DNA of 49,738 nucleotides, from contig SVGX01000004.1 in NCBI GenBank assembly GCA_015056105.1, positions 1 through 49,738 of the forward strand. The letters run 5' to 3'. Shown here in pieces: positions 11,766 through 22,715 of this stretch. The translations under genes were made by a program, and so were the position numbers. How positions within the stretch are numbered: position 1 is the stretch's first letter; each line of letters starts with the position of its first letter. The notes beneath the pieces were generated by a model. That model was not told the origin of the DNA, did not search any database, and saw only the letters and a list, made by a program, of their open reading frames with translations. The DNA comes from Clostridiales bacterium (GTDB lineage Bacteria; Bacillota; Clostridia; Christensenellales; CAG-138).

Positions 11766-12866
11766 TCAGGCTTCGGGAGTATCATCTTCCCGGAATACGG
11801 GGGTGGGCGCTTCCGTTTCTACGTTTATCGCCACATCCATGGCTATATCGACGGAAGGATCGGCCTGAACGGGTGCGGACTGCGGCACAAAGGGCGGGAA
11901 GGAAGTGCCTTCAAGCCGGGCACGGGCATCGAAGTAAAGCACCGTGGCGATGGCGGGCTGGTACAGGGCCAGGAAGATGATCAGCCCGAGATAAAGAACG
12001 GTGACAAGGCTGATGGCAACGGCTGCCGCGGCGGCGGGCAGCAGCTCGCTGACGGCGACGACGGCGCCGAAAAGGAGTGCTGCTACGATGACGGCGCCGT
12101 TGATGATGAACATGCAGCCGACGACCCGGCCGAACCGCTTCCACACGAGCCTGATGCTGCGGCCCACGGCGGCAAAGTTTTTAAGGGGCTCATTTACCGC
12201 CACGGGGAATACGAAAAGCAGCAGGGAGCTTGCGACAACGGTGACGGCAAGCACGAGAAGATAGATAAATACAAAAGCGATAACGGCGCCGACGCCGAGG
12301 GAAGCACTTTCGCCCACAACGGCAAAAACGGAGCCGAACAGGACGAAGACCGTCATCACGCCGGTCAGAAGGCCCGTAACAAGGCTGACGGCGAAATTGA
12401 TGCCCCAGGCGGAAAGCAGATTGCAGAGGGTAGTGGTAAAAAAGCGCTTTAAGCTGTATTTGCTGCGGCGCAGCATTTGCCCGAGGGAACTTGCCCGCCC
12501 ATAAACACGGGCTGTCATTTCCCCGTAGACGGTACCCGAAACGATGGGTACGAACAGCAGCGAAAGAGCGAGGGCGGCGAGCATAACAAGGAACATGCCG
12601 CCGAGCAGGCCGGCGATAAAGGAAAGCACATCGCCGCCGGAAGCGGAGAAGGAAGAGGAGAAACCGTTGGAAGTGCCTTCAAGGGAAAACCCCGCAAGAA
12701 CGATGGCAAGGGTGCCGGGCAGCGGAAGGAGCAGCGCGAAAAGCAAGTACAGCACATGATACCCGGCAAGCGCACCGAGACGGCGGCGGACAAGCTGATT
12801 CGCGATGCCGAAGACGCCGCGCAGGGTCAGCGGGCGGATCACGATGGGGGGATAGGTTTTGAGCAT
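11766..12866 (-). CDS. Multi-pass membrane protein (glycerophosphodiester phosphodiesterase membrane-domain-like)
   Basis: About 6 TM segments, N-terminal IRPLTL and C-terminal LYFDARAR pattern; AGGAGG RBS before ATG 12866. Confidence 0.75.
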   Translation of the reverse strand: MLKTYPPIVIRPLTLRGVFGIANQLVRRRLGALAGYHVLYLLFALLLPLPGTLAIVLAGFSLEGTSNGFSSSFSASGGDVLSFIAGLLGGMFLVMLAALALSLLFVPIVSGTVYGEMTARVYGRASSLGQMLRRSKYSLKRFFTTTLCNLLSAWGINFAVSLVTGLLTGVMTVFVLFGSVFAVVGESASLGVGAVIAFVFIYLLVLAVTVVASSLLLFVFPVAVNEPLKNFAAVGRSIRLVWKRFGRVVGCMFIINGAVIVAALLFGAVVAVSELLPAAAAAVAISLVTVLYLGLIIFLALYQPAIATVLYFDARARLEGTSFPPFVPQSAPVQADPSVDIAMDVAINVETEAPTPVFREDDTPEA

Positions 12867-13029
12867 AAGCGCCACCTCCTGAAAGATAAATTGTCATTTA
12901 CAGTATACCACGAAAAAAGGAAAACACGCTACGCTTCCCGGGGAAAAACCCATGGCAAGGGGATGAAGATACTGTGGCAAACCGTGCCGTACTTTGCATG
13001 GATGCACATTTCGTGCACAAAATCCGCAC

Positions 13030-13058
13030 TTGATAGCAAACAAATGTTCTGCTAAAAT
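13030..13058 (+). promoter_or_regulatory. SigmaA promoter with a LexA-type (Cheo) box in the spacer
   Basis: TTGATA (13030-35), 17 bp, TG-n-TAAAAT (13053-58); AAAC-AAAT-GTTC at 13038-13049 matches GAAC-N4-GTTC with one mismatch. Confidence 0.75.
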
Positions 13059-13091
13059 GCAGACAGTGGATGCGTGGGCAACATGCATCCC

Positions 13092-13128
13092 GGCCGTTTA
13101 AGAAAAGCAAGCGGCTTTTTTATTTTTT
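13092..13128 (+). terminator. Terminator-like hairpin in the 5' leader of the virion operon
   Basis: GCCGTTT/AAGCGGC stem followed by TTTTTTATTTTTT; preceded by a second hairpin at 13068-13090. Confidence 0.6.
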
Positions 13129-13179
13129 GGCAGCGCCGGCCGGAACGGCGCAGCGCACGAAAGTGCGAAAGGAGGATAG

Positions 13180-13734
13180 ATGAACAAATCTGTACGAAAG
13201 CCCCTCAAGGAGGCGTTCGAGGAGAGGATGGCCCTTGAAGGCGCCGTGAAAAAGGTGCGGGAGGAGTACGAGAACAGCCCCGAATACCGCATCGGCTGTG
13301 AGCTCATTGACGGTCTGACGGAGGAGCTTGGCATTTCCGCCGAGCAGGCGGCGGAGATGCTTTCCGCCAAGGTACGCCCGAGCGGCGTGGATGTGCTTTC
13401 AAGCCGCGCGGCAGCCACCCTTGGTGAGATGGAGAAGCAGGGCGCGCTCAAGCGCCCCGCGAAAGCGTACCTTGAGGAAGCCGCTTTTGAAGCGCTGCTC
13501 AAAGAGCTGCCCGCGGCGGCAGCCATCCGTGTGTTTGATGCGGAAAACGCGCTGCAGCAGGCAGGGGCACAGGCGAACAGCGAAAGGGAGCAGGAGATCT
13601 ACGAGATGATCCGCGCCCAGCGGGCACTGCCCCGCCAGATGAAGCCCCAGGCACCCACCGCACAGAGCCCGGACTTCGGCCGCATGAGCAGCGAAGAATT
13701 CGAGCTTTTCAAGAAGCACTACTTTTCCCGCTGA
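13180..13734 (+). CDS. Putative capsid scaffolding protein
   Basis: Charged helical protein directly upstream of the capsid gene, ending in a PDFGRMSSEEF tail as seen in scaffold-position genes; function inferred from position. Confidence 0.6.
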   Translation: MNKSVRKPLKEAFEERMALEGAVKKVREEYENSPEYRIGCELIDGLTEELGISAEQAAEMLSAKVRPSGVDVLSSRAAATLGEMEKQGALKRPAKAYLEEAAFEALLKELPAAAAIRVFDAENALQQAGAQANSEREQEIYEMIRAQRALPRQMKPQAPTAQSPDFGRMSSEEFELFKKHYFSR

Positions 13735-13768
13735 CAAAAAACACTAAGAAAGGAAAGAAAAACAAACT

Positions 13769-14980
13769 ATGGCAAACAACATGACCAACACCACCAACAC
13801 CACTGTACCCGGTACCGGGCTCAATAAGACTTTTTTTGACAGGCAGCTGCTTGAAGGCGCCCGCACCCGCCTTGTGCATGCGGAATACGGCCAGAAGCGC
13901 GTGATCCCCCCGCACAACGGCAAAAGGGTGGAATTCCGCCGATGGAACCTGTTCGATATCGATGAAAACATGTGCGCCCTTTCCGAAGGCGTGACCCCCG
14001 ACGGTCAGACCCTTTCCCAGAGCATCGTGGAAGCGGAGGTAAGCCAGTACGGTGCCTTTGTGGAGGTTTCCGACCTGCTTGAACAGACCGCTTACGAGCA
14101 GGTGCTCAAGGACAGCGCGGAGCTTCTCGGCGAGCAGCTTGGCACCGTTGTGGAATGGGTGACCCGCGACGCCATGTGCTCCGGAAACAACGTGCAGCGC
14201 GCCGGCGGCAAGACCCTCCGCAGCGAGATCGAAGACAGCGACACCCTGACCGTCGATGAGATCCGCAAGGCGGTGCGCACCCTCAAGAAGGCCAAGGCGC
14301 GCCCCTTCGGCGGCAAAAACGGCAGGAAACAGCACTTTATCTGCATCTGTTCTCCCGATGCGACCTACGACCTGCAGAACGACCCCATGTGGCAGGATGT
14401 TTCCAAATATGCCGCCCATGAGCAGCTTTATACCGGTGAGATCGGTATGCTGTTCGGCGTGGTATTCGTGGAATCCACCGAAGCGAAGGTGATCCGCCAG
14501 GCGGTGCTGAGCAAGGTCGTTTCCCATGCCGGCGGCAGCGCAGTTCTGACCGTGGATGTGCTCAGCAAGGAGGGCGCGGCATTCCTCAACAAGGGCGGCG
14601 CAGTCATCAGCATCGGCGATCAGGAATATGCCGTCGCTTCCGCCGATGCGGAAAGCAAGACCATCACCCTTTCGGCGGCGCCCGGCAGCGCTTTTGCGGC
14701 GGGCACCCTTGTTTACAGCACCGAAGCGGGCAAGATGGATGAAACCACCAGGGCTGCGGCGGATGTGCACATGACCCTTGTGTTCGGCAAGGACGCTTAC
14801 GGCACCATCGACCTTTCGAGCGGCGGTGCTGTGACCACCATCATCAAGGGCCGCGGCAGCGCCGGCACCGATGATCCCCTTGACCAGCGTGCCACCGTCG
14901 GCGCGAAGGTGATGGGCTTCACCGCAGCCATCCTCAACGACCTCTGGCTGCTCCGCATCGAACACGGCGTCAGCGCCTGA
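13769..14980 (+). CDS. Major capsid protein, N4-gp56 family
   Basis: GKRVEFRR, LSEGVTPDG, QYGAFVEVSD, GEIGMLFGVVFVES and DPLDQRATVGAK motifs. Confidence 0.9.
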   Translation: MANNMTNTTNTTVPGTGLNKTFFDRQLLEGARTRLVHAEYGQKRVIPPHNGKRVEFRRWNLFDIDENMCALSEGVTPDGQTLSQSIVEAEVSQYGAFVEVSDLLEQTAYEQVLKDSAELLGEQLGTVVEWVTRDAMCSGNNVQRAGGKTLRSEIEDSDTLTVDEIRKAVRTLKKAKARPFGGKNGRKQHFICICSPDATYDLQNDPMWQDVSKYAAHEQLYTGEIGMLFGVVFVESTEAKVIRQAVLSKVVSHAGGSAVLTVDVLSKEGAAFLNKGGAVISIGDQEYAVASADAESKTITLSAAPGSAFAAGTLVYSTEAGKMDETTRAAADVHMTLVFGKDAYGTIDLSSGGAVTTIIKGRGSAGTDDPLDQRATVGAKVMGFTAAILNDLWLLRIEHGVSA

Positions 14981-15060: not shown

Positions 15061-15348
15061 ATGAAATACATGACCGACCGTGAGATCGATCAGCTCAGCG
15101 GCGAGGCGGGCGAGCGCCTTCGGAAGGAGAAGAAGGTCAGGATCCGCATTATGCCCCGTGAGGGCGGAACCAATACACCCTGGGAGGGTGGACTGAATGG
15201 CTGGTTTTTCCGCATCCCCCGCGGCATTCCCGTGGAGGTGCCGGAAAGCCTTGCAAAGCTGATCCGCGAAAACGAATGCACGGAGGCGCTTGCGAAGGAG
15301 AGGCTGCAGGAATACCGCGGCGGCCGCGGCAAGCGTCTTCGCGTATAA
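15061..15348 (+). CDS. Small phage protein of the type that follows N4-gp56 capsids
   Basis: GLNGWFFRIPRGIPVEVPESLAKLI resembles the NG..Y.I.RG..V.VP motif; AAGGAGG RBS. Confidence 0.7.
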   Translation: MKYMTDREIDQLSGEAGERLRKEKKVRIRIMPREGGTNTPWEGGLNGWFFRIPRGIPVEVPESLAKLIRENECTEALAKERLQEYRGGRGKRLRV

Positions 15349-15360
15349 GGAGGGGTTCGC

Positions 15361-15909
15361 GTGACGCTCAACGATATTATCGTTTCCGCCCTTGCACAGC
15401 TTGACCGCGGGCACGATGCGCAGACCCTTGACACCTGGCGTGACAAGTTCACCCGTTTTGCCAACGAAGCGGTGGTCGACCTCAGCGCCGCCTGGTGCCC
15501 CCGCCGCACGGAGGATTTTACCCTTTCGGGAAAGCTGCTCGACACGAGAAAGCTTCAAAGGGAATGCATCCGGGTACACGGGGTAAAGCGGCTTGGCCGC
15601 TATATGACGTTTTTTGAGACCGGCGACAGCGGCATTCTCTGCGTGCCCGGCGCAAAGGCGGACAGCGTGGTGCAGGTGAATTACCGCTTTGCGCCCCATA
15701 CCCTTTCGAGCACCAGCGATGTGCCGGAGCTGCCCGACTGGTGCCACGGGCTGATCGTCTGCTACGTGGTGGGCAGGGAGCGCGCCAGCGGCGAGGTAGG
15801 CATCCAGAGGGGCAGCAACATCTATTTTCAGATGTACGAAGCCGGAAAGGCCAGGCTGCGCCCCCACATGGGCGGTGCGGACAGCTACCGCATCCTGAAC
15901 AGGTGGTGA
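15361..15909 (+). CDS. Putative head-tail adaptor (podovirus-type)
   Basis: MTLNDII start, ANEA, and PELPDWCHGLIVCY motif; size and position fit an adaptor; AAGGAGG RBS with GTG start. Confidence 0.65.
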   Translation: MTLNDIIVSALAQLDRGHDAQTLDTWRDKFTRFANEAVVDLSAAWCPRRTEDFTLSGKLLDTRKLQRECIRVHGVKRLGRYMTFFETGDSGILCVPGAKADSVVQVNYRFAPHTLSSTSDVPELPDWCHGLIVCYVVGRERASGEVGIQRGSNIYFQMYEAGKARLRPHMGGADSYRILNRW

Positions 15910-15913
15910 TCCC

Positions 15914-17338
15914 ATGGCCCGCAGGATATACCGCATCGACGAATTTCACGGCATCGACCAATCCCGCAACGAAAACGCCATCGGTGCGGGCATGAGCCCG
16001 GATGCAGCCAATATGGATACGGAAAACGGCAGCCTGGCGGTGGCGGCGGGCTATGTCAGACACATCGATGCGCCCGTCCCCGGCGACGCGCCCCCTCACA
16101 GGCTGTTTCTTCACCGAAGAAAGGATGGGGATGTGTTCATCGCCATTGCGGGGGACACGGTCTACGCCTGCAGGGACGGCGTTTGGAAGGAGATCTATAC
16201 CTACGAAACGCCCCTTGCCGCCCACGAGTTTGATTTTGCGGAGGTGCAGATCGACAGCGTGGACCACCTTGTGATCGGCTGCGGGGAAAGGCAGCTCATC
16301 AAATACAACGGCAGCGAAGTGAGCCTTTTCGGCAGCGAAGAGGGACTTTCCAATGTGCACGTCCGCTACCTTGCCATGTACCGCAACAGGCTTTTTTCCG
16401 CGGGCGACAGCGAACACCCGAACCGGCTTTACTGGTCGCAGCTGCCCGGCAGCGGCAGAAGCATCGAAAACTGGGGCATTGTGGAGGCTTCCCCCAACGT
16501 GGAGGGCGGCCACACGGAGGTGGGAGATACGGGCGGCGACCCCATCACGGGGCTTGCGGCCCTTTCCAACCAGCTGCTGATCTTCAAACAGCACGAGATA
16601 TACCGGCTTCTTGGCGATAGACCCGGCAATTACATCGTAGAAAAGGTGGAATCCCGGGGCGAGACGCCCGCCCATACGGCGGTGGTGCCTTCCGGCGATG
16701 CCCTTTATTACATGACGAAAAGCGGCCTTTGCTGCTTTAACGGTGTGAGCGCCGCACCCATGGGTGACGCAAGGCGCATCCGCACCATCCTTTCGGATGC
16801 GGACACCTCCCGCTCGAAGGGCGCCATCTGCGCGGACAAGCTTTATTTTACCCTTCAGCAAAGCGGCGGCAGCGCGGTAGCCGTATACGACCTTGTGCGG
16901 GGCGCATACATGATGCGAAACGGCTTTACCGCCCACGATGTCTGCGCCAGGGGAGATACCCTTTACATCCTTAACGGCAAGCGGCATGTTTGCCGCTTCG
17001 GCGAGGGCCGCACCTACGACGGCATTCCCATTGCGGCCCATTGGCAGACGCCCCTTACGGATCTGCACGAGAAGGGGTGCGTCAAATGCATGCGGGAGCT
17101 TTACCTGCGCGGCAGCAGCGAATTGCCCGATTCCGTGATCCTGATGGATATGACGGTGGGCAAAAACACCGCCGCGCACCGCATCCGCGTGCCGGATACC
17201 CGGGATGAGGTGTCGGAAGTGCCCCTTGTAAACGAGGGACGCACATTCTCCATGCGCTTTTACAACGAGGCGGGCGGGCACTTTGTGATAGAGGCGGGCA
17301 TAGAGCTGATGTTCGATGAACGGAGGCGAAGCGAATAA
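15914..17338 (+). CDS. Putative tail nozzle/hub protein (P22 gp10 / T7 gp12-like beta-propeller)
   Basis: FHGID...DAANM start, YRNRLF, NRLYWS, GDPITGL...LLIFK, ALYYMTKSG propeller-type motifs; follows the adaptor. Confidence 0.7.
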   Translation: MARRIYRIDEFHGIDQSRNENAIGAGMSPDAANMDTENGSLAVAAGYVRHIDAPVPGDAPPHRLFLHRRKDGDVFIAIAGDTVYACRDGVWKEIYTYETPLAAHEFDFAEVQIDSVDHLVIGCGERQLIKYNGSEVSLFGSEEGLSNVHVRYLAMYRNRLFSAGDSEHPNRLYWSQLPGSGRSIENWGIVEASPNVEGGHTEVGDTGGDPITGLAALSNQLLIFKQHEIYRLLGDRPGNYIVEKVESRGETPAHTAVVPSGDALYYMTKSGLCCFNGVSAAPMGDARRIRTILSDADTSRSKGAICADKLYFTLQQSGGSAVAVYDLVRGAYMMRNGFTAHDVCARGDTLYILNGKRHVCRFGEGRTYDGIPIAAHWQTPLTDLHEKGCVKCMRELYLRGSSELPDSVILMDMTVGKNTAAHRIRVPDTRDEVSEVPLVNEGRTFSMRFYNEAGGHFVIEAGIELMFDERRRSE

Positions 17339-17540: not shown

Positions 17541-18488
17541 TTGGCAAGTTATTATGTTTTGGAGGGCTACACCACGCCCGCCGGCGTCGACAGCCGGCAA
17601 AAGGTGAAGGATTACCAGAAACAGCTTGGCGTACGGGCGGACGGCATCTGGGGACCGGAGACGCAGGCGGCATACAATGCTTCCGGCATGGGAAATACCA
17701 CGGAGCGCTGGGGTTTGCTGCACGGCAGCAGCTACGGCACCGGCGCAGCGAACACCTTCGGCGCATTTTACAACGATGCCCTTTCGATGCTCGGCACGCC
17801 GTCCATCCATGTGAACACCCCCTCAAGGGCATCCATCGAAAAGGATATTGCCGCATCATTGCGCCCGGCGACGGAGCAGGCCATTGATGCGCGAAGGGAC
17901 CAGGCGGAGACCAACATGGCAGAGCTTGATGCGGACGCCGCATCCCGCGGCATGGGCGCTTCCACCTATGTGACCAGCATGAAAGGCAGGGAACTGAGCA
18001 GGAGCGAAAGCGATGTGGCGATGATGGAATCCAACTATTCCGCCGCCCTTGCGGAACGCGTGGCAAACTATCTGCAGTACTATGCCAACCTGGAGTTTCA
18101 GGCGGCGATGCAGAATGCGCAGCTTCGCACCAACGCGCAGAATGCGGCTGCAAGCCTTGCATCGCAGTGGTACGCCGCATACCTTGCGGCAAACGCCGCG
18201 AACAGCAGCGGCGGCAGCGGAAAGAGCGGCAGCAGCGCTGCGGATAACAAAGAATACTTCAGCATGACGGCGGACGAATACGAAGCTTTTGTGCGGGGCA
18301 TGAGCAGCAGTGAGCTGCTGGAGCTCTTCAATTCGAAAGATGCTTACTGGCAGGACAGCCGCGACGAGCTTTACGATGCGCTCGGCAGCAGCCGCTACAG
18401 CGCGCTTGAAAGCAGTCTGAACCCCGTTAAGAAAAAAACGTCGGGCTTGAGCGGAAAGGAAGGCACATGGGTGAGAGAGAAGTATTAA
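17541..18488 (+). CDS. Putative internal virion/ejection protein with N-terminal peptidoglycan-binding-like motif
   Basis: VKDYQKQLGVRADGIWGPETQAAY resembles PG_binding_1; Ala/Ser/Gln-rich helical middle; TTG start after AAGGAAGGAG. Confidence 0.6.
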   Translation: MASYYVLEGYTTPAGVDSRQKVKDYQKQLGVRADGIWGPETQAAYNASGMGNTTERWGLLHGSSYGTGAANTFGAFYNDALSMLGTPSIHVNTPSRASIEKDIAASLRPATEQAIDARRDQAETNMAELDADAASRGMGASTYVTSMKGRELSRSESDVAMMESNYSAALAERVANYLQYYANLEFQAAMQNAQLRTNAQNAAASLASQWYAAYLAANAANSSGGSGKSGSSAADNKEYFSMTADEYEAFVRGMSSSELLELFNSKDAYWQDSRDELYDALGSSRYSALESSLNPVKKKTSGLSGKEGTWVREKY

Positions 18489-19402
18489 AACGCTTTGAAG
18501 TTGCCCTTGATATCAGCCGATCCATTTCAAACCGCGCTTTTACGGTGGTGGAAGGCGATACGGGCAACCTTCTGCACATTACCCTTACCGACAACGGCAT
18601 GCCGGTGGACCTCACCGGCTGCCGTGTGCTGGCGGTCTTTTCAAAATCCAACGGCACCTCCTCCCAGGACAGCGGCGTGGAAGAAGGCGGCGTGAGCCTT
18701 GGCGGCAAAAGCGGGAACGAGGTGACCATCTCCCTTTTCAACAGCTCTTTCGCACCGGGCATGGTGGAATGTGAACTGCAGGTGTATTCCGGAGAGGACC
18801 GCATGACCCTTGTGACGAGCGCAAAGTTCAATTTCAACTGCAGGCGCGGCATACTCAACGGGGAAACGGTACAATCCACCGGCGATTATCCGGTGCTTGT
18901 GGCGCTGATCGCCGAGACGGAAAAAGCGGCGGCGGCAGCCTATGCGGCTGCTGCCGCCACAGGACAGGCTGCCCATGCATCGCGCCATGCAGCAGGCGGC
19001 ACAGACCCCCTGACGCCTGCAGCCATCGGTGCGGCCACGGCGGAGCACACGCACGCACCCGCAACCATCGGTGCGGCCGCAGCGGAGCATACGCACACGC
19101 CTGCTGCCATCGGTGCGGCCGCAGCACCCATCATTGCCGCAAACGTTGCGGTGGAACTGAGCTGTTGGGCGGACGATGCCACCTTCGCTGCATACCCTTA
19201 CCGGGCGGCGGTTCCTGTGAGCGCCGCAAAAGAAGGAATGTATGCATATGTATCCTTCGACGCTGCGGAATCCGACAGCGGCGCTTACGCAAAGCAGACA
19301 GCGGCGTATGAAGGCGGCGTTTACATCTATGCCAATGCACTGCCTGCAACGACCATCACGCTGTTGACGGTGCTGCTGATCCCCGTTGGAGGTGCCGTAT
19401 GA
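18467..19402 (+). CDS. BppU/DUF2479-like fibre-anchoring protein with His-x-His repeats
   Basis: VVEGDTGNLLHITLTDNGMPVDLTG...F.KSNG...GMVECELQVY...TSAKFNF; HASRHAAGGTDPLTPAAIGA and HTH repeats. Confidence 0.8.
   Translation: MGEREVLKRFEVALDISRSISNRAFTVVEGDTGNLLHITLTDNGMPVDLTGCRVLAVFSKSNGTSSQDSGVEEGGVSLGGKSGNEVTISLFNSSFAPGMVECELQVYSGEDRMTLVTSAKFNFNCRRGILNGETVQSTGDYPVLVALIAETEKAAAAAYAAAAATGQAAHASRHAAGGTDPLTPAAIGAATAEHTHAPATIGAAAAEHTHTPAAIGAAAAPIIAANVAVELSCWADDATFAAYPYRAAVPVSAAKEGMYAYVSFDAAESDSGAYAKQTAAYEGGVYIYANALPATTITLLTVLLIPVGGAV
19013..19126 (+). repeat. 42-bp tandem repeat, about 2.7 copies
   Basis: CCATCGGTGCGGCC recurs at 19023, 19065 and 19107; encodes PAAIGAAxAEHTHx. Confidence 0.9.
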
Positions 19403-19791
19403 TCTTTGGCATGACAAACGCAGGCGCAGGCGGCGGATTGAAGCTTGTGACGGGCAGTTTCACTTCGAGTAACACGGAAACCCAGGAAAAGTTTACTGTA
19501 TCCGGTCTTACCTTTGAACCGAAAATCGTTGCCATCAGGCGCACAAGCCTCACCGATGGAGATGCTGTCGGCGGTAACAACATGCTGATTTGTGCATTTT
19601 CCGATCTTGAGACAAACATAGGCTTTTGCGGATACGGCATTTCAGGTTCTGGCACGGTGAAAACATCGAGTGCTTTGACGGTATCGGGCTGCAATGGTAC
19701 ATATACCGTAACTTCGTCAACGTATCCCTTTTCCTATGTTGCTTTCGGCAAAGCGAACTATGGCAAATACACATATTACATCTACGGATAA
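19399..19791 (+). CDS. Putative tail-fibre tip / receptor-binding subunit
   Basis: ATGA coupling; Gly-rich N-terminus (GAGGG); Thr/Ser/Tyr-rich; visibly more AT-rich than its neighbours. Confidence 0.55.
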   Translation: MIFGMTNAGAGGGLKLVTGSFTSSNTETQEKFTVSGLTFEPKIVAIRRTSLTDGDAVGGNNMLICAFSDLETNIGFCGYGISGSGTVKTSSALTVSGCNGTYTVTSSTYPFSYVAFGKANYGKYTYYIYG

Positions 19792-19803
19792 GGGGTGAAC
19801 GGC

Positions 19804-20136
19804 ATGGCATTTGTGAGGTGGGTATTTTATGACACCGAAGGCAATGTGAAATATGAAGGCATGCAGGAAGGCAGCTTCCGCCATATCCCTGCGGCGGATG
19901 TGGCGGCATCCTTCGGACTGACGGATGTAAGGTGCATGGAATGGCGGCAGAAAGATCCTGCCGTTGAAGCGGCGTTTGCCGACACAGATGAGAACGGGGC
20001 GCTCCGGCACGTGGAGGTGTCCGTGGACGTGAGCGGAAACGAACCGAAACTCGTGTTTGCCTACACGCCCGTGGAGGAGACGGAAAGGGATGACCCCTAT
20101 GCGATCATTGATATTCTGACAGGAGGTGAAGCCTGA
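19804..20136 (+). CDS. Hypothetical phage protein (possible fibre assembly factor)
   Basis: Acidic small ORF in the fibre module, ending IIDILTGGEA, coupled to the next gene. Confidence 0.65.
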   Translation: MAFVRWVFYDTEGNVKYEGMQEGSFRHIPAADVAASFGLTDVRCMEWRQKDPAVEAAFADTDENGALRHVEVSVDVSGNEPKLVFAYTPVEETERDDPYAIIDILTGGEA

Positions 20137-20564
20137 TGGCAGTAAGGACTATGGAAGAAGCCCGTGCATGGCGGGCAAGGATGGAGAACCTGACGAAGGA
20201 AGCAACGGATGCGACCGCTTCCACCATGCCGGAAGCCTTTCCGAAGCTGAAGGGTGACGGAAGCCTTGTAAGGGCCGGTACCCGCATCAACTGGCATGGC
20301 ATGCTGAAGCGTGCTGCCGCAGACCTGTGGGACACGGCGGAAAACACGCCGGAAAATGCGCCCTCGCTGTGGGAGGATATCGACTATAGGGACGGCATCC
20401 GCATCATCCCCGATTTGATCACAGCGGGCACGGCCTTCCAAAAGGGTGAACTTGGCTGGTGGGGCGATGCTGTTTATCGCTCCGTGCATGACGGCGCAAA
20501 CGTGTGGACGCCCGAAGAGTATCCTGCCGCATGGGAAAAAGCGGAGGAGGAAGGTGATGTATGA
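20136..20564 (+). CDS. Phage protein with a CBM5/12-like tryptophan module
   Basis: PENAPSLWEDI, FQKGELGWWGDAVYRS...NVWTPEEYPAAWE. Confidence 0.7.
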   Translation: MAVRTMEEARAWRARMENLTKEATDATASTMPEAFPKLKGDGSLVRAGTRINWHGMLKRAAADLWDTAENTPENAPSLWEDIDYRDGIRIIPDLITAGTAFQKGELGWWGDAVYRSVHDGANVWTPEEYPAAWEKAEEEGDV

Positions 20565-21265
20565 TGCAGGGCTTTCTTGAATATTTGAAGGAACAGGTGG
20601 GCCGCTCCGTATATGTATGGGGCGGCCAGGGGGAGACGGAGATCACAGAAAAGTGGGTCCGCTCCCGGGAAAACAAGGAGGCAAATATCCTTCGGGTAAT
20701 GCGCTTTTACGAAGGCCTGCGATCAAAGGGGATATCTCCCATCCGGGCATACGATTGCAGCGGGCTGATCCTCCATTACTGGCAGGACAGGGTGGGTTTT
20801 TTCACATCGGATATGACGGCAGCCGGGCTTTTCCGGCTCTGCACGGCCCTTGAAAAGACAGCGCTGCAGCCGGGCGATCTTGTGTTTCGCCATAACGGCA
20901 CAGCCATTCACCATGTGGGTGTCTATATGGGCGACGGACAGGTGATCGAAGCGGAGGGAAGAGACAGAGGCGTTGTGGAGCGGCATATCGACGCGGGCGG
21001 AACAGGATACTGGAACCGCTTCGGCAGGCCGCCTTTTTTTGACCTCAAAAAGACGGATGACAGCTGCTTTGCCCGGGTGAAGGGCGATTCTGTGAACCTC
21101 AGGGCAGGCCCGGGGACGGAATATCCCATCGTAACGGTAACGCACCGCGGCGATCCGCTGCTTGCCCGGGCGGAACGGGAAGGCTGGTGTGAAACGGCGG
21201 CCATCGCCGGCGGCAAGATGCAGCGGGGCTACATGAGCGCAAAATATATCGAAAGAAACAAGTGA
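20561..21265 (+). CDS. Endolysin: NlpC/P60 peptidase with C-terminal SH3b domain
   Basis: YVWGG, YDCSGL, PGDLVF, HHVGVYMGDGQVIEA; SH3b VNLRAGPGTEY...GW...GYMSAKYI. Confidence 0.9.
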   Translation: MMQGFLEYLKEQVGRSVYVWGGQGETEITEKWVRSRENKEANILRVMRFYEGLRSKGISPIRAYDCSGLILHYWQDRVGFFTSDMTAAGLFRLCTALEKTALQPGDLVFRHNGTAIHHVGVYMGDGQVIEAEGRDRGVVERHIDAGGTGYWNRFGRPPFFDLKKTDDSCFARVKGDSVNLRAGPGTEYPIVTVTHRGDPLLARAEREGWCETAAIAGGKMQRGYMSAKYIERNK

Positions 21266-21278
21266 AAGGAGGGAGAGT

Positions 21279-21692
21279 ATGGAACGGATCGCGGACATTC
21301 TGAAACTTGCTGCGGCGGCGGCCGGCGCGGCGGCTTCTTATCTTTGGGGCCCCTTTGATGCGCTGATCTTGACGCTTGTGGCGGTGGTATGCATCGACTA
21401 CATCACGGGGATCGTAAAGGCGGTCATCCTTAAGGAGCTTTCGAGCGGCGTCGGATTTCGCGGGCTTCTTAAGAAGATGTTCATCTTTGCACTGGTGGCC
21501 CTTGCAACGGTCATCGATGGGATGATCCCCGCCGCAAAGGATGCCATCCGCACGGCGGTGATCGGCTTTTATGTGGCGAACGAGGGCATCAGCATCCTTG
21601 AAAACGCGGGCGCTATCGGGCTTCCCATGCCGAAGGCGCTCAAAGGCGCCCTTGAAAGGCTGCAGGAAGCCGGAGAAAATGCGCAAGAGTAA
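21279..21692 (+). CDS. Holin (Phage_holin_4_1, toxin secretion/phage lysis family)
   Basis: IDYITG, LSSGVGFRGLLKK, FYVANEGISILENAGAIGLPMP. Confidence 0.93.
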   Translation: MERIADILKLAAAAAGAAASYLWGPFDALILTLVAVVCIDYITGIVKAVILKELSSGVGFRGLLKKMFIFALVALATVIDGMIPAAKDAIRTAVIGFYVANEGISILENAGAIGLPMPKALKGALERLQEAGENAQE

Positions 21693-21785
21693 GGCGGTTT
21701 TGCGGCGAATGCACTTGTGTTCCCCGCGGGATTGGTCTTATAATAATTGAAAACAACGCAAACACAGCGGGCGGAGGAACAGCCA

Positions 21786-22715
21786 ATGCAGCAGCGGCAG
21801 CGCATCTTAACGGAATACAGGGCAAAACGGCAGGCGGCCATCGCTGCGGCGGCGGAAAACCGCGCCAAAGCGGAAGCGAAGCTGCCGCGTCTTCGCGAGA
21901 TCGAAGAGATGCAGCGGCGCCTTGCCTTTGCGCTTGGCCTGAAGCTTGTGACGGCTGCCGACAAGGATGCTGTGCGAAAGGATACCGAGACGCAGATCGC
22001 TGCCCTTGAACGGGAGGCGGAACTGCTGCTTGCGGATCACGGCATCGCCCCGGAAAGCCTTAAACCCCGGTTTGAATGTGAAATCTGCGAAGACACAGGC
22101 TTTGTGGGAGCGGAAAAACAGCCCTGCGCCTGTTTCAAAAAACGGCTGCTGCAGGCGGAATACGCATCCTCCGGCCTGGCGGAAAATGCCCGGTTCGCCC
22201 TTTTTGACGAAAGCATTTATCGGGATGAGACCCAGAAAAAACGCAGCCTCAAGGCAAAGCGCATTTTGGAGGAATATGCGCAAACACTTTCCTTCAACGA
22301 TGCAAAGGGGCTGATGCTGCTTGGCGCGGTAGGCGTGGGCAAGACCTTCCTTCTTGACTGCGTGGGCCATGCGGCCATGGAAAATGGGTTTACGGTAAAA
22401 AAATACACCGCGTACAATCTTGTCGATCGGATGCTGCAGGGCATCCGGGAGCGGGAAAGCGGCCTTGCGGCGCTGACAAAGCCTGATCTTCTGCTTATCG
22501 ATGATCTCGGCACGGAGCCCTTTATCCAGAACATCACATACGAAGGGCTTTTCGGCATTGTGAACGAAAGGCAGAATGCGGGCAAAGCCACTGCCATCGC
22601 CACGAACCTTTCCCCCAAAGAGATACTTGACGCATATGGCGAAAGACTGTTTTCAAGGCTCACATCCCCCCGGCTTTTCACGGTACTGGAACTCAAAGGG
22701 GAGAGCCTCCGCTGA
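21786..22715 (+). CDS. dnaC: DnaC/DnaI-like helicase-loader ATPase with zinc finger
   Basis: CEICEDTG...CAC zinc site, Walker A GAVGVGKT, LLLIDDLGTE, ATNL, YGERLFSRL; GGAGG RBS before ATG 21786. Confidence 0.88.
   Translation: MQQRQRILTEYRAKRQAAIAAAAENRAKAEAKLPRLREIEEMQRRLAFALGLKLVTAADKDAVRKDTETQIAALEREAELLLADHGIAPESLKPRFECEICEDTGFVGAEKQPCACFKKRLLQAEYASSGLAENARFALFDESIYRDETQKKRSLKAKRILEEYAQTLSFNDAKGLMLLGAVGVGKTFLLDCVGHAAMENGFTVKKYTAYNLVDRMLQGIRERESGLAALTKPDLLLIDDLGTEPFIQNITYEGLFGIVNERQNAGKATAIATNLSPKEILDAYGERLFSRLTSPRLFTVLELKGESLR

What the first reader, a model, noticed from the sequence alone, without database searches (positions are those of the whole stretch)
12876..13769. Packaging module (terminase and portal) is missing exactly where it should be
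Seen: upstream of the scaffold-like gene there is only ~300 bp of intergenic DNA and a divergent host membrane gene, with no recognisable remnant of terminase or portal sequence. Known: in tailed phages the adaptor and nozzle dock on the portal, so these tail genes need one. Inference: either a separate portal/terminase locus exists elsewhere in the chromosome (a split, GTA-like architecture), or the operon works with or against incoming phages, for example by capsid/tail substitution or interference.
Basis: inference. Interest (0 to 1): 0.7.

Follow-up and report, generated by a model that had tools for sequence, protein, structure and literature searches.

The report
Split gene-transfer-agent-like capsid operon
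The capsid, short-tail and lysis genes in this window are one half of a tamed virus kept by a whole family of gut bacteria, and the DNA-packaging genes that seemed to be missing sit at a second site in the same genome.

Summary
Upstream of the scaffold-like gene lie 304 bp of intergenic DNA and a divergent host gene, with no terminase or portal remnant. The genome's only large terminase and its only P22/SU10-type portal lie on another contig, C32, flanked upstream by host genes. Both loci carry the same LexA-type box. Its 12-mer occurs three times in 1.81 Mb; the third copy is at a DNA polymerase IV promoter.

Capsid, portal and terminase were found in 133, 135 and 135 of 151 genomes of the family, whose record titles say Christensenellales. 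Each is usually a single intact copy. All 13 sampled genera are monophyletic on the capsid tree, and dN/dS is 0.07-0.22. Some genera keep the cluster contiguous; others break it at different points.

The closest known system is FpGTA of Faecalibacterium (PMC12946183). Direct sequence orthology to it could not be tested. Genera with distant loci lack the gp3-type small terminase and instead carry an SOS-controlled helix-turn-helix protein.

This scan has read the same kind of element on other DNA three times. Packaging and transfer remain inferred.

The parts
13030..13058 (+). Sigma-70-type promoter of the head-tail-lysis operon (TTGATA, 17 nt, TAAAAT, with TG before the -10).
   Evidence: It is the only promoter-like site in 12700-13900, with 10 of 12 matches; shuffles give a mean of 0.3. 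The -35 and -10 are conserved in the genus alignment A2.
13038..13049 (+). LexA-type (Cheo) box AAAC-AAAT-GTTC in the promoter spacer, one mismatch from GAAC-N4-GTTC.
   Evidence: The 12-mer AACAAATGTTCT (13039-13050) occurs exactly 3 times in the 1.81-Mb assembly: here, upstream of the terminase locus (C32:27990) and in the promoter of a DNA polymerase IV gene (C22:30280). Perfect boxes stand at the same place in 3 of 3 other genus members aligned. lexA genes of relatives carry AGAACAAAAGTTTG.
13059..13179 (+). 5' leader with three hairpins. The second hairpin is followed by a T-run (TTTTTTATTTTTTGG), and a GC hairpin GCGCCGGCCGGAACGGCGC follows that.
   Evidence: RNA fold -47.7 kcal/mol, z -3.1. 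The T-run plus GC-hairpin motif is conserved in genera g1 and g32. In other genera the same position holds clear intrinsic terminators. No Rfam family matched.
13180..13734 (+). Scaffold-like protein, 184 aa (label by position only).
   Evidence: No Pfam, PHROG or NCBIfam match. Homologues lie between portal and capsid in contiguous relatives. dN/dS is 0.15 against G077.
13769..14980 (+). Major capsid protein, N4-gp56 family, 403 aa.
   Evidence: TIGR04387 at 254.7 bits; phrog_1357 at 4e-66; PF13252. Single copy in the genome. Found in 133 of 151 family genomes.
15061..15348 (+). Small conserved protein, 95 aa, of unknown role, between capsid and adaptor.
   Evidence: No family match. Conserved at this position across genera at 41-88% identity.
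15361..15909 (+). Head-to-tail adaptor, 182 aa.
   Evidence: PF24175 SU10_adaptor, E 1.6e-6, 29.2 bits against a cut-off of 27. It is 88-96% identical within the genus.
15914..17338 (+). Tail nozzle or hub protein, 474 aa.
   Evidence: phrog_3287 and phrog_511. The AF2 model (pLDDT 63) matches podophage nozzles at Foldseek E 9e-15 to 1e-7, including P22 gp10 (8eap_D).
17541..18488 (+). Tail-associated protein with an N-terminal peptidoglycan-binding motif, 315 aa.
   Evidence: PF01471, E 1e-5. It follows the nozzle in nearly all related loci.
18467..19402 (+). BppU-like fibre or baseplate protein, 311 aa.
   Evidence: PF10651 BppU_N, E 8e-6, 26 bits against a cut-off of 23.1. FpGTA operon II also holds a BppU-like fibre (supplement table).
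19399..20564 (+). Three small ORFs (130, 113 and 142 aa), probably distal tail or receptor-binding parts.
   Evidence: Only weak PHROG matches, to families of unknown function. Conserved in G077 at 55-93%.
20561..21265 (+). Endolysin, NlpC/P60 endopeptidase plus SH3 domain, 234 aa.
   Evidence: PF00877 at 8e-13 and PF08239 at 1e-7.
21279..21692 (+). Holin, 137 aa.
   Evidence: PF05105 at 1.5e-38; TIGR01593 at 94 bits.

Best explanation
The window holds the head-tail-lysis half of a chromosomally fixed, podovirus-derived particle system of the gene-transfer-agent type. In order it encodes a scaffold-like protein, an N4-gp56-type capsid, an adaptor, a nozzle, fibre proteins, an endolysin and a holin.

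The packaging half sits at a second locus on contig C32. It consists of a 188-aa helix-turn-helix protein ('C_reg'), the large terminase and a P22/SU10-type portal. The two loci are separated by host genes.

Shown here:
- Both halves exist, each as a single copy.
- Both carry a LexA-type box.
- The same genes form one contiguous cluster in sister genera.
- The set is kept by purifying selection across a bacterial family.

Inferred mechanism: DNA damage inactivates LexA, which derepresses both promoters. C_reg, or another factor, lets RNA polymerase read through the terminator-like leader of the head operon. Procapsids assemble on the portal. TerL fills them by headful packaging with host DNA. 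No gp3-type small terminase was found in this lineage, so packaging would not be targeted to a specific site. Adaptor, nozzle and fibres are then added, and holin and endolysin release the particles.

By analogy with FpGTA, the particles would carry random chromosome fragments too short to encode the whole system.
For: Location of the packaging genes:
- Terminase_6N matched at C32:28651-29274.
- The C32 ORFs are TerL (PF03237 4.8e-14; phrog_979 1.5e-53) and portal (PF16510 2.9e-21; PF23899 SU10_portal 3e-12; phrog_156 3e-50). Host AcnX and OYE genes lie upstream.
- All element genes are single copy in the assembly.

Same element in relatives:
- Three complete genomes of genus g20 have TerS-TerL-portal-(scaffold)-capsid-s95-adaptor-nozzle in one run.
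- Of 80 related loci, 47 are contiguous in this way. Ten have at least 5 kb of upstream DNA with neither TerL nor portal.
- The window's arrangement recurs in 3 other genomes of the genus.
- In G109 both loci share one contig, 28 kb apart, with amino-acid metabolism and germination genes between them.

Distribution and descent:
- Capsid in 133 of 151, portal in 135 of 151 and TerL in 135 of 151 family genomes, covering 46-47 of 50 genera.
- On a capsid tree of 55 genomes, all 13 genera are monophyletic: 12 label changes, which is the minimum, against a shuffled mean of 43.2 (0 of 200 shuffles as low).
- Against G077, dN/dS is 0.07-0.22 for 12 element genes. Their dS of 0.34-1.19 resembles that of the flanking PepF (0.52) and membrane gene (0.77).

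Regulation: LexA-box evidence is.

Published analogue: FpGTA particles, about 40 nm with 8.4-8.9 kb DNA, were shown by EM, proteomics and long reads. GTA-like packaging was also recorded for Christensenellaceae MAGs in 3 of 25 events (PMC12946183, sections 9, 10 and 26 and supplement file 4 read).
Against: - No particle, packaged DNA or transfer has been observed for this organism. No RNA run holds the locus.
- Orthology to FpGTA proteins was not tested at the sequence level.
- LexA and RecA were not found in this 86.6%-complete assembly. LexA was found in 4 of 5 relatives searched.
- The window's own box has one mismatch.
- LexA boxes are missing upstream of TerL in 41 of 43 contiguous-type loci, so SOS control is specific to this lineage.
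- C_reg's role is unproven. It has no Pfam or NCBIfam match, and Foldseek found nothing at E <= 0.001.
- C32 ends 5 kb after the portal, so that locus is incompletely seen.
- A PBSX-like role, in which particles do not deliver their DNA, is not excluded.
Confidence: 0.78

Rival explanations
1. It is a PBSX-like defective particle or bacteriocin. The same two loci build SOS-induced particles that package host DNA or none. The particles serve to kill or compete, or simply to lyse the cell, and do not deliver DNA to recipients.
For: SOS-type control together with lysis genes resembles PBSX. The FpGTA authors leave this possibility open for their own element (discussion read). A polymorphic-toxin-like gene array lies directly downstream of the portal on C32.
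Against: Known tailocins are built from contractile or long flexible tails. Here a full capsid, portal and terminase are kept under purifying selection, and a pure killing device would not need them. Nothing links the neighbouring toxin-like array to the particle.
Confidence: 0.12
2. It is a phage satellite or an interference module, such as a capsid-forming PICI or a capsid/tail substitution system. On this reading it depends on, or acts against, incoming helper phages.
For: A head operon without adjacent packaging genes looks superficially like a satellite. A DnaC/IstB-like ATPase gene follows the holin.
Against: - No integrase or replication initiator was seen in the flanks.
- The chromosomal position is fixed within the genus.
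- The element is family-wide with genus-monophyletic descent.
- It has its own adaptor, nozzle, fibre, lysin and holin.
- Its own TerL and portal are present elsewhere in the genome.
Confidence: 0.03
3. It is a decaying prophage remnant. The packaging genes were lost from this site, and the C32 genes belong to another, unrelated prophage.
For: Cryptic prophage fragments are common in bacterial genomes. The C32 contig ends 5 kb after the portal, so what lies beyond it is unseen.
Against: - All 12 element ORFs are intact, with dN/dS of 0.07-0.22.
- The orthologues of the C32 TerL and portal are physically joined to orthologues of the window's capsid in other genera.
- There is no second capsid in the genome.
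- Both loci share the same LexA box.
Confidence: 0.04
4. The split is an assembly or binning artefact, and the two loci are really adjacent.
For: The genome is an 88-contig metagenome-assembled genome, 86.6% complete.
Against: - The scaffold gene is preceded by 13 kb of host genes within the same contig. The terminase locus is preceded by 27 kb of host genes.
- The same separation is seen in 4 other genomes of the genus.
- In G109 the two loci lie 28 kb apart on a single contig.
Confidence: 0.02

Closest known systems
FpGTA of Faecalibacterium prausnitzii, operons I and II (Borodovich et al., Nat Commun 2026, PMC12946183)
   Same: [quoted passage not shown]
- The capsid carries the same NCBI family name, N4-gp56 (supplement table; here).
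- The gene order TerL-portal-X-capsid-...-nozzle (nozzle likened to PDB 8eap) equals the contiguous form in this family.
- It has a BppU-like fibre, a holin and an endolysin.
- Its genes lie at two distant loci.
- It is near-ubiquitous in its host genus.
   Different: - The host is a different order; record titles here say Christensenellales.
- The break point differs. FpGTA separates the fibre and lysis genes from the TerS-to-nozzle run. This genome separates TerL and portal from the scaffold-to-holin run.
- No gp3-type TerS was found here, and an HTH protein stands upstream of TerL instead.
- LexA boxes stand on both loci here. None of the passages I read describes LexA boxes at FpGTA.
- Sequence identity to the FpGTA proteins was not measured.
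- No particles have been shown for this element.
RcGTA-type gene transfer agents of Alphaproteobacteria (recalled; reviewed in PMC9662315, of which only the search listing was seen)
   Same: It is a domesticated phage structural gene set that is inherited vertically, spread over several loci, under host regulation and released by lysis.
   Different: RcGTA is siphovirus-like with an HK97-type head and is controlled by CtrA and quorum signals (recalled). This element is podovirus-like with an N4-type capsid and carries LexA-type boxes.
PBSX of Bacillus subtilis (recalled; mentioned in the discussion of PMC12946183)
   Same: It is an SOS-inducible defective particle of a Gram-positive host that packages host DNA. 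This element's TerL gives a weak, below-cut-off match to the PBSX-family terminase model (TIGR01547, 51 bits against a cut-off of 105).
   Different: PBSX is one contiguous myovirus-like prophage region and acts as a killing particle. This element is podovirus-like, split and family-wide.
Podophages with N4-gp56-type capsids: Bacillus megaterium phages Page and Pony, Paenibacillus phage API480, and uncultured human-faecal phage contigs
   Same: They are the nearest viral relatives. The capsid is 31-35% identical to the cultured phages over about half to 70% of its length, and 35-44% identical to five faecal contigs.
   Different: They are far more distant than the bacterial family's own copies, which are 56-69% identical between genera. 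The portal is at most 31% identical to any phage record. The cultured ones are complete phage genomes of about 40-45 kb (record lengths), not two loci among host genes.

Membership tests
Gene transfer agent / viriform (general definition) | Phage-like structural genes resident in the host chromosome, conserved and vertically inherited. | tested here: met
   Capsid in 133, portal in 135 and TerL in 135 of 151 family genomes. All 13 genera are monophyletic on the capsid tree. Flanking synteny is conserved in the genus. dS resembles that of the flanking genes.
Gene transfer agent / viriform (general definition) | No replication, integration or lysogeny module, and genes may lie at several loci. 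| tested here: met
   Pfam on the flanking ORFs of the window and of C32 found no integrase, repressor-excision or replication-initiator set. There are two loci. Caveats: a DnaC/IstB-like ATPase follows the holin, and C32 ends 5 kb after the portal.
Gene transfer agent / viriform (general definition) | Particles package random host DNA in pieces too small to carry the whole gene set. | not testable with these tools
   No virome or particle data exist for this organism. The two loci are at least 18 kb apart (13 kb plus 5 kb to the contig ends), so one 8-9 kb headful, which is the FpGTA size, could not hold both. This is an inference.
Gene transfer agent / viriform (general definition) | Production is under host regulatory control. 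| tested here: inconclusive
   LexA-type boxes stand at both promoters and at a Pol IV promoter. They are conserved in the genus and at the C_reg gene in genera g27 and g40. This is sequence evidence only, and LexA itself was not found in this incomplete assembly.
Gene transfer agent / viriform (general definition) | Delivery of the packaged DNA to recipient cells. | not testable with these tools
   This needs a transfer assay.
FpGTA family | [quoted passage not shown] | tested here: met
   TIGR04387 at 254.7 bits against a cut-off of 60. FpGTA's RCH50849.1 bears the same family name.
FpGTA family | Operon I order: TerS, TerL, portal, scaffold-position gene, capsid, ..., nozzle. | tested here: not met
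   In this genome the run is broken between portal and scaffold, and no gp3-type TerS was found. Sister genera of the same family do meet the order.
FpGTA family | Sequence orthology to the FpGTA proteins (RCH50849, RCH50851, RCH50852). | not tested
Eight class-level loci fetched in search of them (L120-L123, L169-L172) did not show the FpGTA gene order. GC was computed only for L169-L172 and was 43-48%.
Capsid-forming phage satellite (cf-PICI type) | Integrase, replication module and horizontal, patchy distribution. | tested here: not met
   No integrase or replication module was seen in the flanks. The element is family-wide with genus-monophyletic descent.
P22/SU10-type portal (is one hidden in the window?) | A portal fold or family match among the window's ORFs. 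| tested here: not met
   No portal family matched any window ORF. The largest unassigned ORF is a beta-propeller nozzle. tblastn of the genome's portal on the window gave a best E of 8.1.

The most novel reading that the evidence does not exclude
In the lineage that holds this genome, the packaging genes were moved away from the head-tail-lysis operon. At the same time the gp3-type small terminase was given up for a LexA-controlled protein, C_reg, with a C-terminal helix-turn-helix that weakly resembles sigma region 4.

On this reading C_reg is the trans-acting switch. It would act as an activator or antiterminator on the terminator-rich leader of the head operon. The cascade would run from DNA damage through LexA and C_reg to synchronous expression of two distant loci, followed by TerS-independent, sequence-blind headful packaging and lysis.

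Together with capsid homologues found in nearly every sampled genome of three other Clostridia families, this would point to an old, class-wide domestication of one podophage lineage.
Probability: 0.3. Interest if true: 0.7.

Novelty: new variant of a known kind. Interest (0 to 1): 0.5.

Why it matters
Podovirus-like gene transfer agents were first described in 2026, in a single genus. This window shows a relative of that system kept across at least 46 of 50 sampled genera of a Christensenellales family of gut and rumen bacteria.

That family gives a natural series of contiguous and differently split forms. The series can be used to ask how a tamed virus comes under host control. Two concrete leads come from it:
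- An SOS (LexA) link on both loci.
- A clean either/or pattern between a classical small terminase and a LexA-controlled HTH protein.

The published study recorded GTA-like DNA packaging from Christensenellaceae genomes in human faeces without naming the genes responsible. This cluster is the obvious candidate.

Tried and rejected
- **Rfam.** A search of both upstream regions found no credible family; the two hits were at E 0.035 and 0.16, both below their gathering scores.
- **C_reg.** No Pfam or NCBIfam match. A PDB sequence profile search gave nothing below E 0.18. Foldseek gave nothing at E <= 0.001; there were only weak ECF-sigma rows at E 0.4-0.8. hhalign against the gp3-type TerS profile gave probability 0.7%.
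- **LexA and RecA in this assembly.** The one weak PF01726 hit is a MarR-like protein. RecA was not found. The assembly is 86.6% complete, so neither result shows absence.
- **Same leader at both loci.** The terminase locus has a different upstream layout. A terminator-like hairpin and a conserved palindrome stand before the promoter, and almost no leader follows the LexA box. I did not build a covariance model.
- **Link to FpGTA by sequence.** Cluster look-up and the homologue search gave no Faecalibacterium names. Class-level loci L120-L123 and L169-L172 have other gene orders. GC, computed only for L169-L172, was 43-48%.
- **PDB sequence searches.** Nothing for the nozzle profile or the portal.
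- **One or several split events.** The free capsid tree needs 2 changes, but a single origin is not rejected (p-AU 0.26). No host species tree was built.
Full report
**Observation.** The window is contig C17 of an 88-contig, 1.81-Mb metagenome-assembled genome, 86.6% complete. A 304-bp intergenic stretch (12876-13179) separates two genes. One is a divergent minus-strand ORF (11766-12875) with only a weak, below-cut-off match to a membrane domain. The other is a plus-strand, 184-aa ORF with no family match.

From there a tight plus-strand run follows:
- N4-gp56-type capsid (TIGR04387, 254.7 bits; phrog_1357, 4e-66).
- A 95-aa protein.
- An SU10-type adaptor (PF24175).
- A 474-aa protein.
- A protein with a peptidoglycan-binding motif.
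- A BppU_N fibre-like protein.
- Three small ORFs.
- An NlpC/P60-SH3 endolysin.
- A holin.

An AlphaFold model of the 474-aa protein is all-beta (pLDDT 63). It matches podophage tail nozzles at Foldseek E 9e-15 to 1e-7, including Pa223, P22 gp10 (8eap_D), Sf6 gp8, SU10 and T7 gp12. It is a nozzle and not a hidden portal. This genome's own TerL and portal find nothing in the window; the best tblastn E is 1.6. The rest of the window is ordinary chromosome.

**Where the packaging genes are.** Terminase_6N matches once in the genome, on contig C32. Downstream of minus-strand host genes (AcnX and an OYE-type oxidoreductase), three plus-strand genes follow there:
- A 188-aa ORF that I call C_reg (L003:11525-12091).
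- TerL (PF03237 4.8e-14; phrog_979 1.5e-53). It probably starts at L003:12073 and overlaps C_reg by 19 nt.
- A portal (PF16510 P22_portal 2.9e-21; PF23899 SU10_portal 3e-12).

Every element gene is single copy in the assembly. The scaffold-like gene is preceded by 13 kb of host genes within its contig, and the terminase locus by 27 kb. The two loci therefore cannot be adjacent.

**One element, not two.** In three complete genomes of genus g20 the orthologues form one run: TerS, TerL, portal, scaffold position, capsid, s95, adaptor, nozzle and the peptidoglycan-binding protein. I examined 80 related loci, the best 80 of 199 found with a g20-led query and so biased towards that type:
- 47 show TerL-portal-capsid contiguous.
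- 7 show portal-capsid with no TerL in at least 3.3 kb upstream.
- 10 have at least 5 kb upstream with neither gene.
- 16 are cut too short to tell.

Homologues of the window's scaffold-like protein sit between portal and capsid in contiguous loci, so the break here falls exactly between portal and scaffold. The window's arrangement runs PepF and the membrane gene, then divergently scaffold to holin, then a DnaC-like gene and an M1 peptidase. It recurs in three other genomes of the genus. In G109 (genus g32) both loci lie on one contig, 28 kb apart. Amino-acid metabolism, germination and amylase genes lie between them.

**Distribution and descent.** In a sample of 151 genomes of the family (50 genera), the capsid was found in 133, the portal in 135 and TerL in 135. 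Each covers 46-47 genera and is mostly a single intact copy. Capsid and portal co-occur in 128 genomes. Five have the capsid only, 7 the portal only and 11 neither; one of the 11 is a one-contig genome. Most genomes are incomplete and kin are not independent, so I give no test statistic.

Identity to the window's proteins is nested by rank. For the capsid it is 81-90% in the genus, 56-69% in most other genera, at most 47% in other Clostridia families and at most 44% in any phage record.

I built a capsid tree of 55 genomes. I chose 13 genera that each had at least three full-length hits and took 3-6 genomes from each; all other genomes were left out. Every genus is monophyletic. The tree needs 12 label changes, which is the minimum, against a shuffled mean of 43.2 (0 of 200 shuffles as low).

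Against the nearest genome (G077), twelve element genes have dN/dS of 0.07-0.22. Their dS of 0.34-1.19 is in the range of the flanking PepF (0.52) and membrane gene (0.77). More distant pairs are near saturation. Record titles of relatives name Christensenellales, Christensenellaceae, Clostridia and Oscillospiraceae MAGs from guts and digesters.

**Regulation.** The window has one promoter-like site, 13030-13058. A box AAAC-AAAT-GTTC lies in its spacer. The 12-mer AACAAATGTTCT occurs three times in the assembly, where about 0.2 are expected for a given 12-mer on both strands (my arithmetic):
- In the window, at 13039-13050.
- 24 nt before the C_reg start codon on C32, as a perfect AGAACAAATGTTCT.
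- In the promoter spacer of a DNA polymerase IV gene.

Other GAAC-N4-GTTC boxes precede a second Y-family polymerase and a UvrD/PcrA-like helicase; I identified both from their N-terminal sequences, without a family scan. All five genus genomes with the terminase locus carry a perfect box before C_reg. Three of three other genus members aligned carry a perfect box in the head promoter. G109 has one-mismatch boxes. lexA genes of relatives carry AGAACAAAAGTTTG. The C_reg genes of genera g27 and g40 carry a perfect and a one-mismatch box in the same promoter layout.

By contrast, only 2 of 43 contiguous-type loci have even a near-box in the 900 nt upstream of TerL. LexA and RecA themselves were not found in this incomplete assembly.

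The 121-nt leader of the head operon folds into three hairpins (z -3.1) with a T-run after the second. The T-run and a GC hairpin are conserved in g1 and g32. Other genera have clear intrinsic terminators, sometimes two, at the same place. No Rfam family matches. The terminase locus does not share this leader. It has its own conserved palindrome, GTACCATAAACGGTAC, upstream of the promoter.

**Small terminase versus C_reg.** In contiguous-type loci the ORF before TerL is a gp3-type small terminase (PF16677 in 12 of 12 members, best E 3.9e-11). I searched profiles of this TerS and of C_reg over the 54 other genomes of the tree and obtained an almost clean either/or pattern:
- TerS present: g20 5/5, g30 4/4, g31 4/4, g4 4/4, g5 3/3. 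It was absent from the other eight genera.
- C_reg present: g1 3/4, g32 6/6, g40 5/5, g27 4/4, g21 4/4, g3 3/3, g4 1/4. It was absent from g20, g30, g31, g5, g6 and g17.
- g6 and g17 have neither.
- One genome (G003) has both.

G000 itself and G041 have C_reg and no TerS. The C_reg genera are those in which portal and capsid lie on different contigs or tens of kb apart.

C_reg is not homologous to the TerS (hhalign probability 0.7%). Its model (pLDDT 75) has two long helices and a C-terminal three-helix bundle. The only hints to its function are phrog_36 'transcriptional regulator' (1.1e-6) and weak ECF-sigma rows. It could be a regulator that ties the two loci together, or an unrelated small terminase. 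I lean 60:40 to regulator, because its promoter is the SOS-controlled one and because in g27 and g40 it is transcribed divergently from TerL.

On the free capsid tree the split/C_reg state needs two changes, but a single origin is not rejected (p-AU 0.26).

**Mechanism.** The following is shown:
- Two intact, co-inherited loci together hold a full podovirus head, neck, tail, packaging motor and lysis set.
- No replication or integration genes were seen in either locus or its sampled flanks.
- Both loci carry LexA-type boxes.

The following is inferred. DNA damage derepresses both loci. The head operon additionally needs read-through of its leader. TerL packages host DNA by headful without a site-specific small terminase. 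Lysis releases particles that cannot carry their own gene set, because the loci are at least 18 kb apart.

**Comparison with what is known.** The closest system is FpGTA (PMC12946183; I read the outline, sections 9, 10 and 26, passages, and part 1 of 4 of supplement file 4). It is a podovirus-like GTA of Faecalibacterium with two operons 125 kb apart. Its particles are about 40 nm and carry 8.4-8.9 kb of DNA. Its capsid is named N4-gp56 family, its nozzle is likened to 8eap, and it has a BppU-like fibre.

The paper reports GTA-like packaging from Christensenellaceae MAGs in 3 of 25 events; none of the sections and passages I read names a gene cluster for them. 'FpGTA' occurs in no other paper of the library. 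Searches for 'gene transfer agent' with Faecalibacterium, or with podovirus and Clostridia, gave no other such system. Sequence orthology to FpGTA could not be tested here.

This scan has already read the same kind of element on other DNA three times (e1-5152324, e1-3786139, e1-3968162), each time as GTA-like with FpGTA as the closest known. I reached the same reading before seeing those notes.

**Verdict.** The 'missing' packaging module is not missing. It sits at a second locus. The finding is a real, split, domesticated particle system of a kind published in 2026. New here are the break point between portal and scaffold, the shared LexA box, and the TerS/C_reg alternation across genera. Function in DNA transfer remains untested.

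Noticed in passing
L003:15312-20000 (contig C32:31812-36500, directly downstream of the portal): This looks like a polymorphic toxin/immunity array. A 612-aa protein shares a short N-terminal stretch with the peptidoglycan-binding motif of the window's tail protein. Its last ~115 residues recur as two orphan cassettes at 46-51% identity, with a weak DUF4329 match. Each cassette is followed by members of one small paralogous family. A homologue of the 612-aa protein also follows the portal in G077 (49%), and partial homologues follow it in three other genus members.
   Followed up: partly
window 13059-13179, and the same position in L012, L015, L033, L085, L086, L096, L109: The head-operon leader is conserved in layout across genera. 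A hairpin starts a few bases after the -10, then comes a T-run (TTTATTTTTGG), then a GC hairpin, and often a second true terminator. No Rfam family matches. It may be an antitermination-controlled leader.
   Followed up: partly
L003:11402-11417 (C32), and the aligned positions in L116-L119 and L032: The palindrome GTACCATAAACGGTAC lies about 30 nt upstream of the -35 of the C_reg promoter. It is largely conserved in g1 and g32, and similar sequences occur in g27 and g40. It may be an operator for a second regulator.
   Followed up: partly
window 21747-22715: A DnaC/IstB-like ATPase gene follows the holin directly (PRK06835, 205 bits, just under its cut-off of 215). It keeps this place in g1 (63-80% identity) and in G109 (48%). 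It is unclear whether it is a host neighbour or part of the element.
   Followed up: no
class-level genomes; L120 (G430), L122 (G207), L123 (G231), L170, L172: Capsid homologues at 38-47% identity were found in nearly every sampled genome of three other Clostridia families (f13 14/14, f22 7/7, f23 12/13). None was found in 15 genomes of the window's own order outside its family. Arrangements differ. For example, L120 has scaffold-like, capsid, one further gene and nozzle with no TerL or portal nearby.
   Followed up: partly
L029 (G061:C1:2530001-2550000): One complete g20 genome carries a second, diverged copy of the whole cluster about 26 kb upstream of the first. Against this genome its TerL is 60%, its portal 45% and its capsid 56% identical, and its nozzle match is in two pieces.
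   Followed up: no
G000 C55:2151, C67:16800, C22:30279: There is a small putative SOS regulon. GAAC-N4-GTTC boxes stand in promoter positions before two Y-family polymerase genes and a UvrD/PcrA-like helicase.
   Followed up: partly
phage records MT836150.1, MT836218.1, MT837590.1, MT835662.1: The nearest 'phage' records are short, unannotated human-faecal contigs (6.6-22.6 kb) with portal and capsid side by side. Their capsids are 35-44% identical. They could be chromosomal pieces of related domesticated elements caught in viromes rather than phages.
   Followed up: no
family f13 hits, e.g. G231:C23:132811-133713: In family f13 the capsid match falls into two pieces, query residues 1-248 and 332-400, sometimes in different frames. 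This suggests an inserted domain, a frameshift or an intervening element in that family's capsid gene.
   Followed up: no
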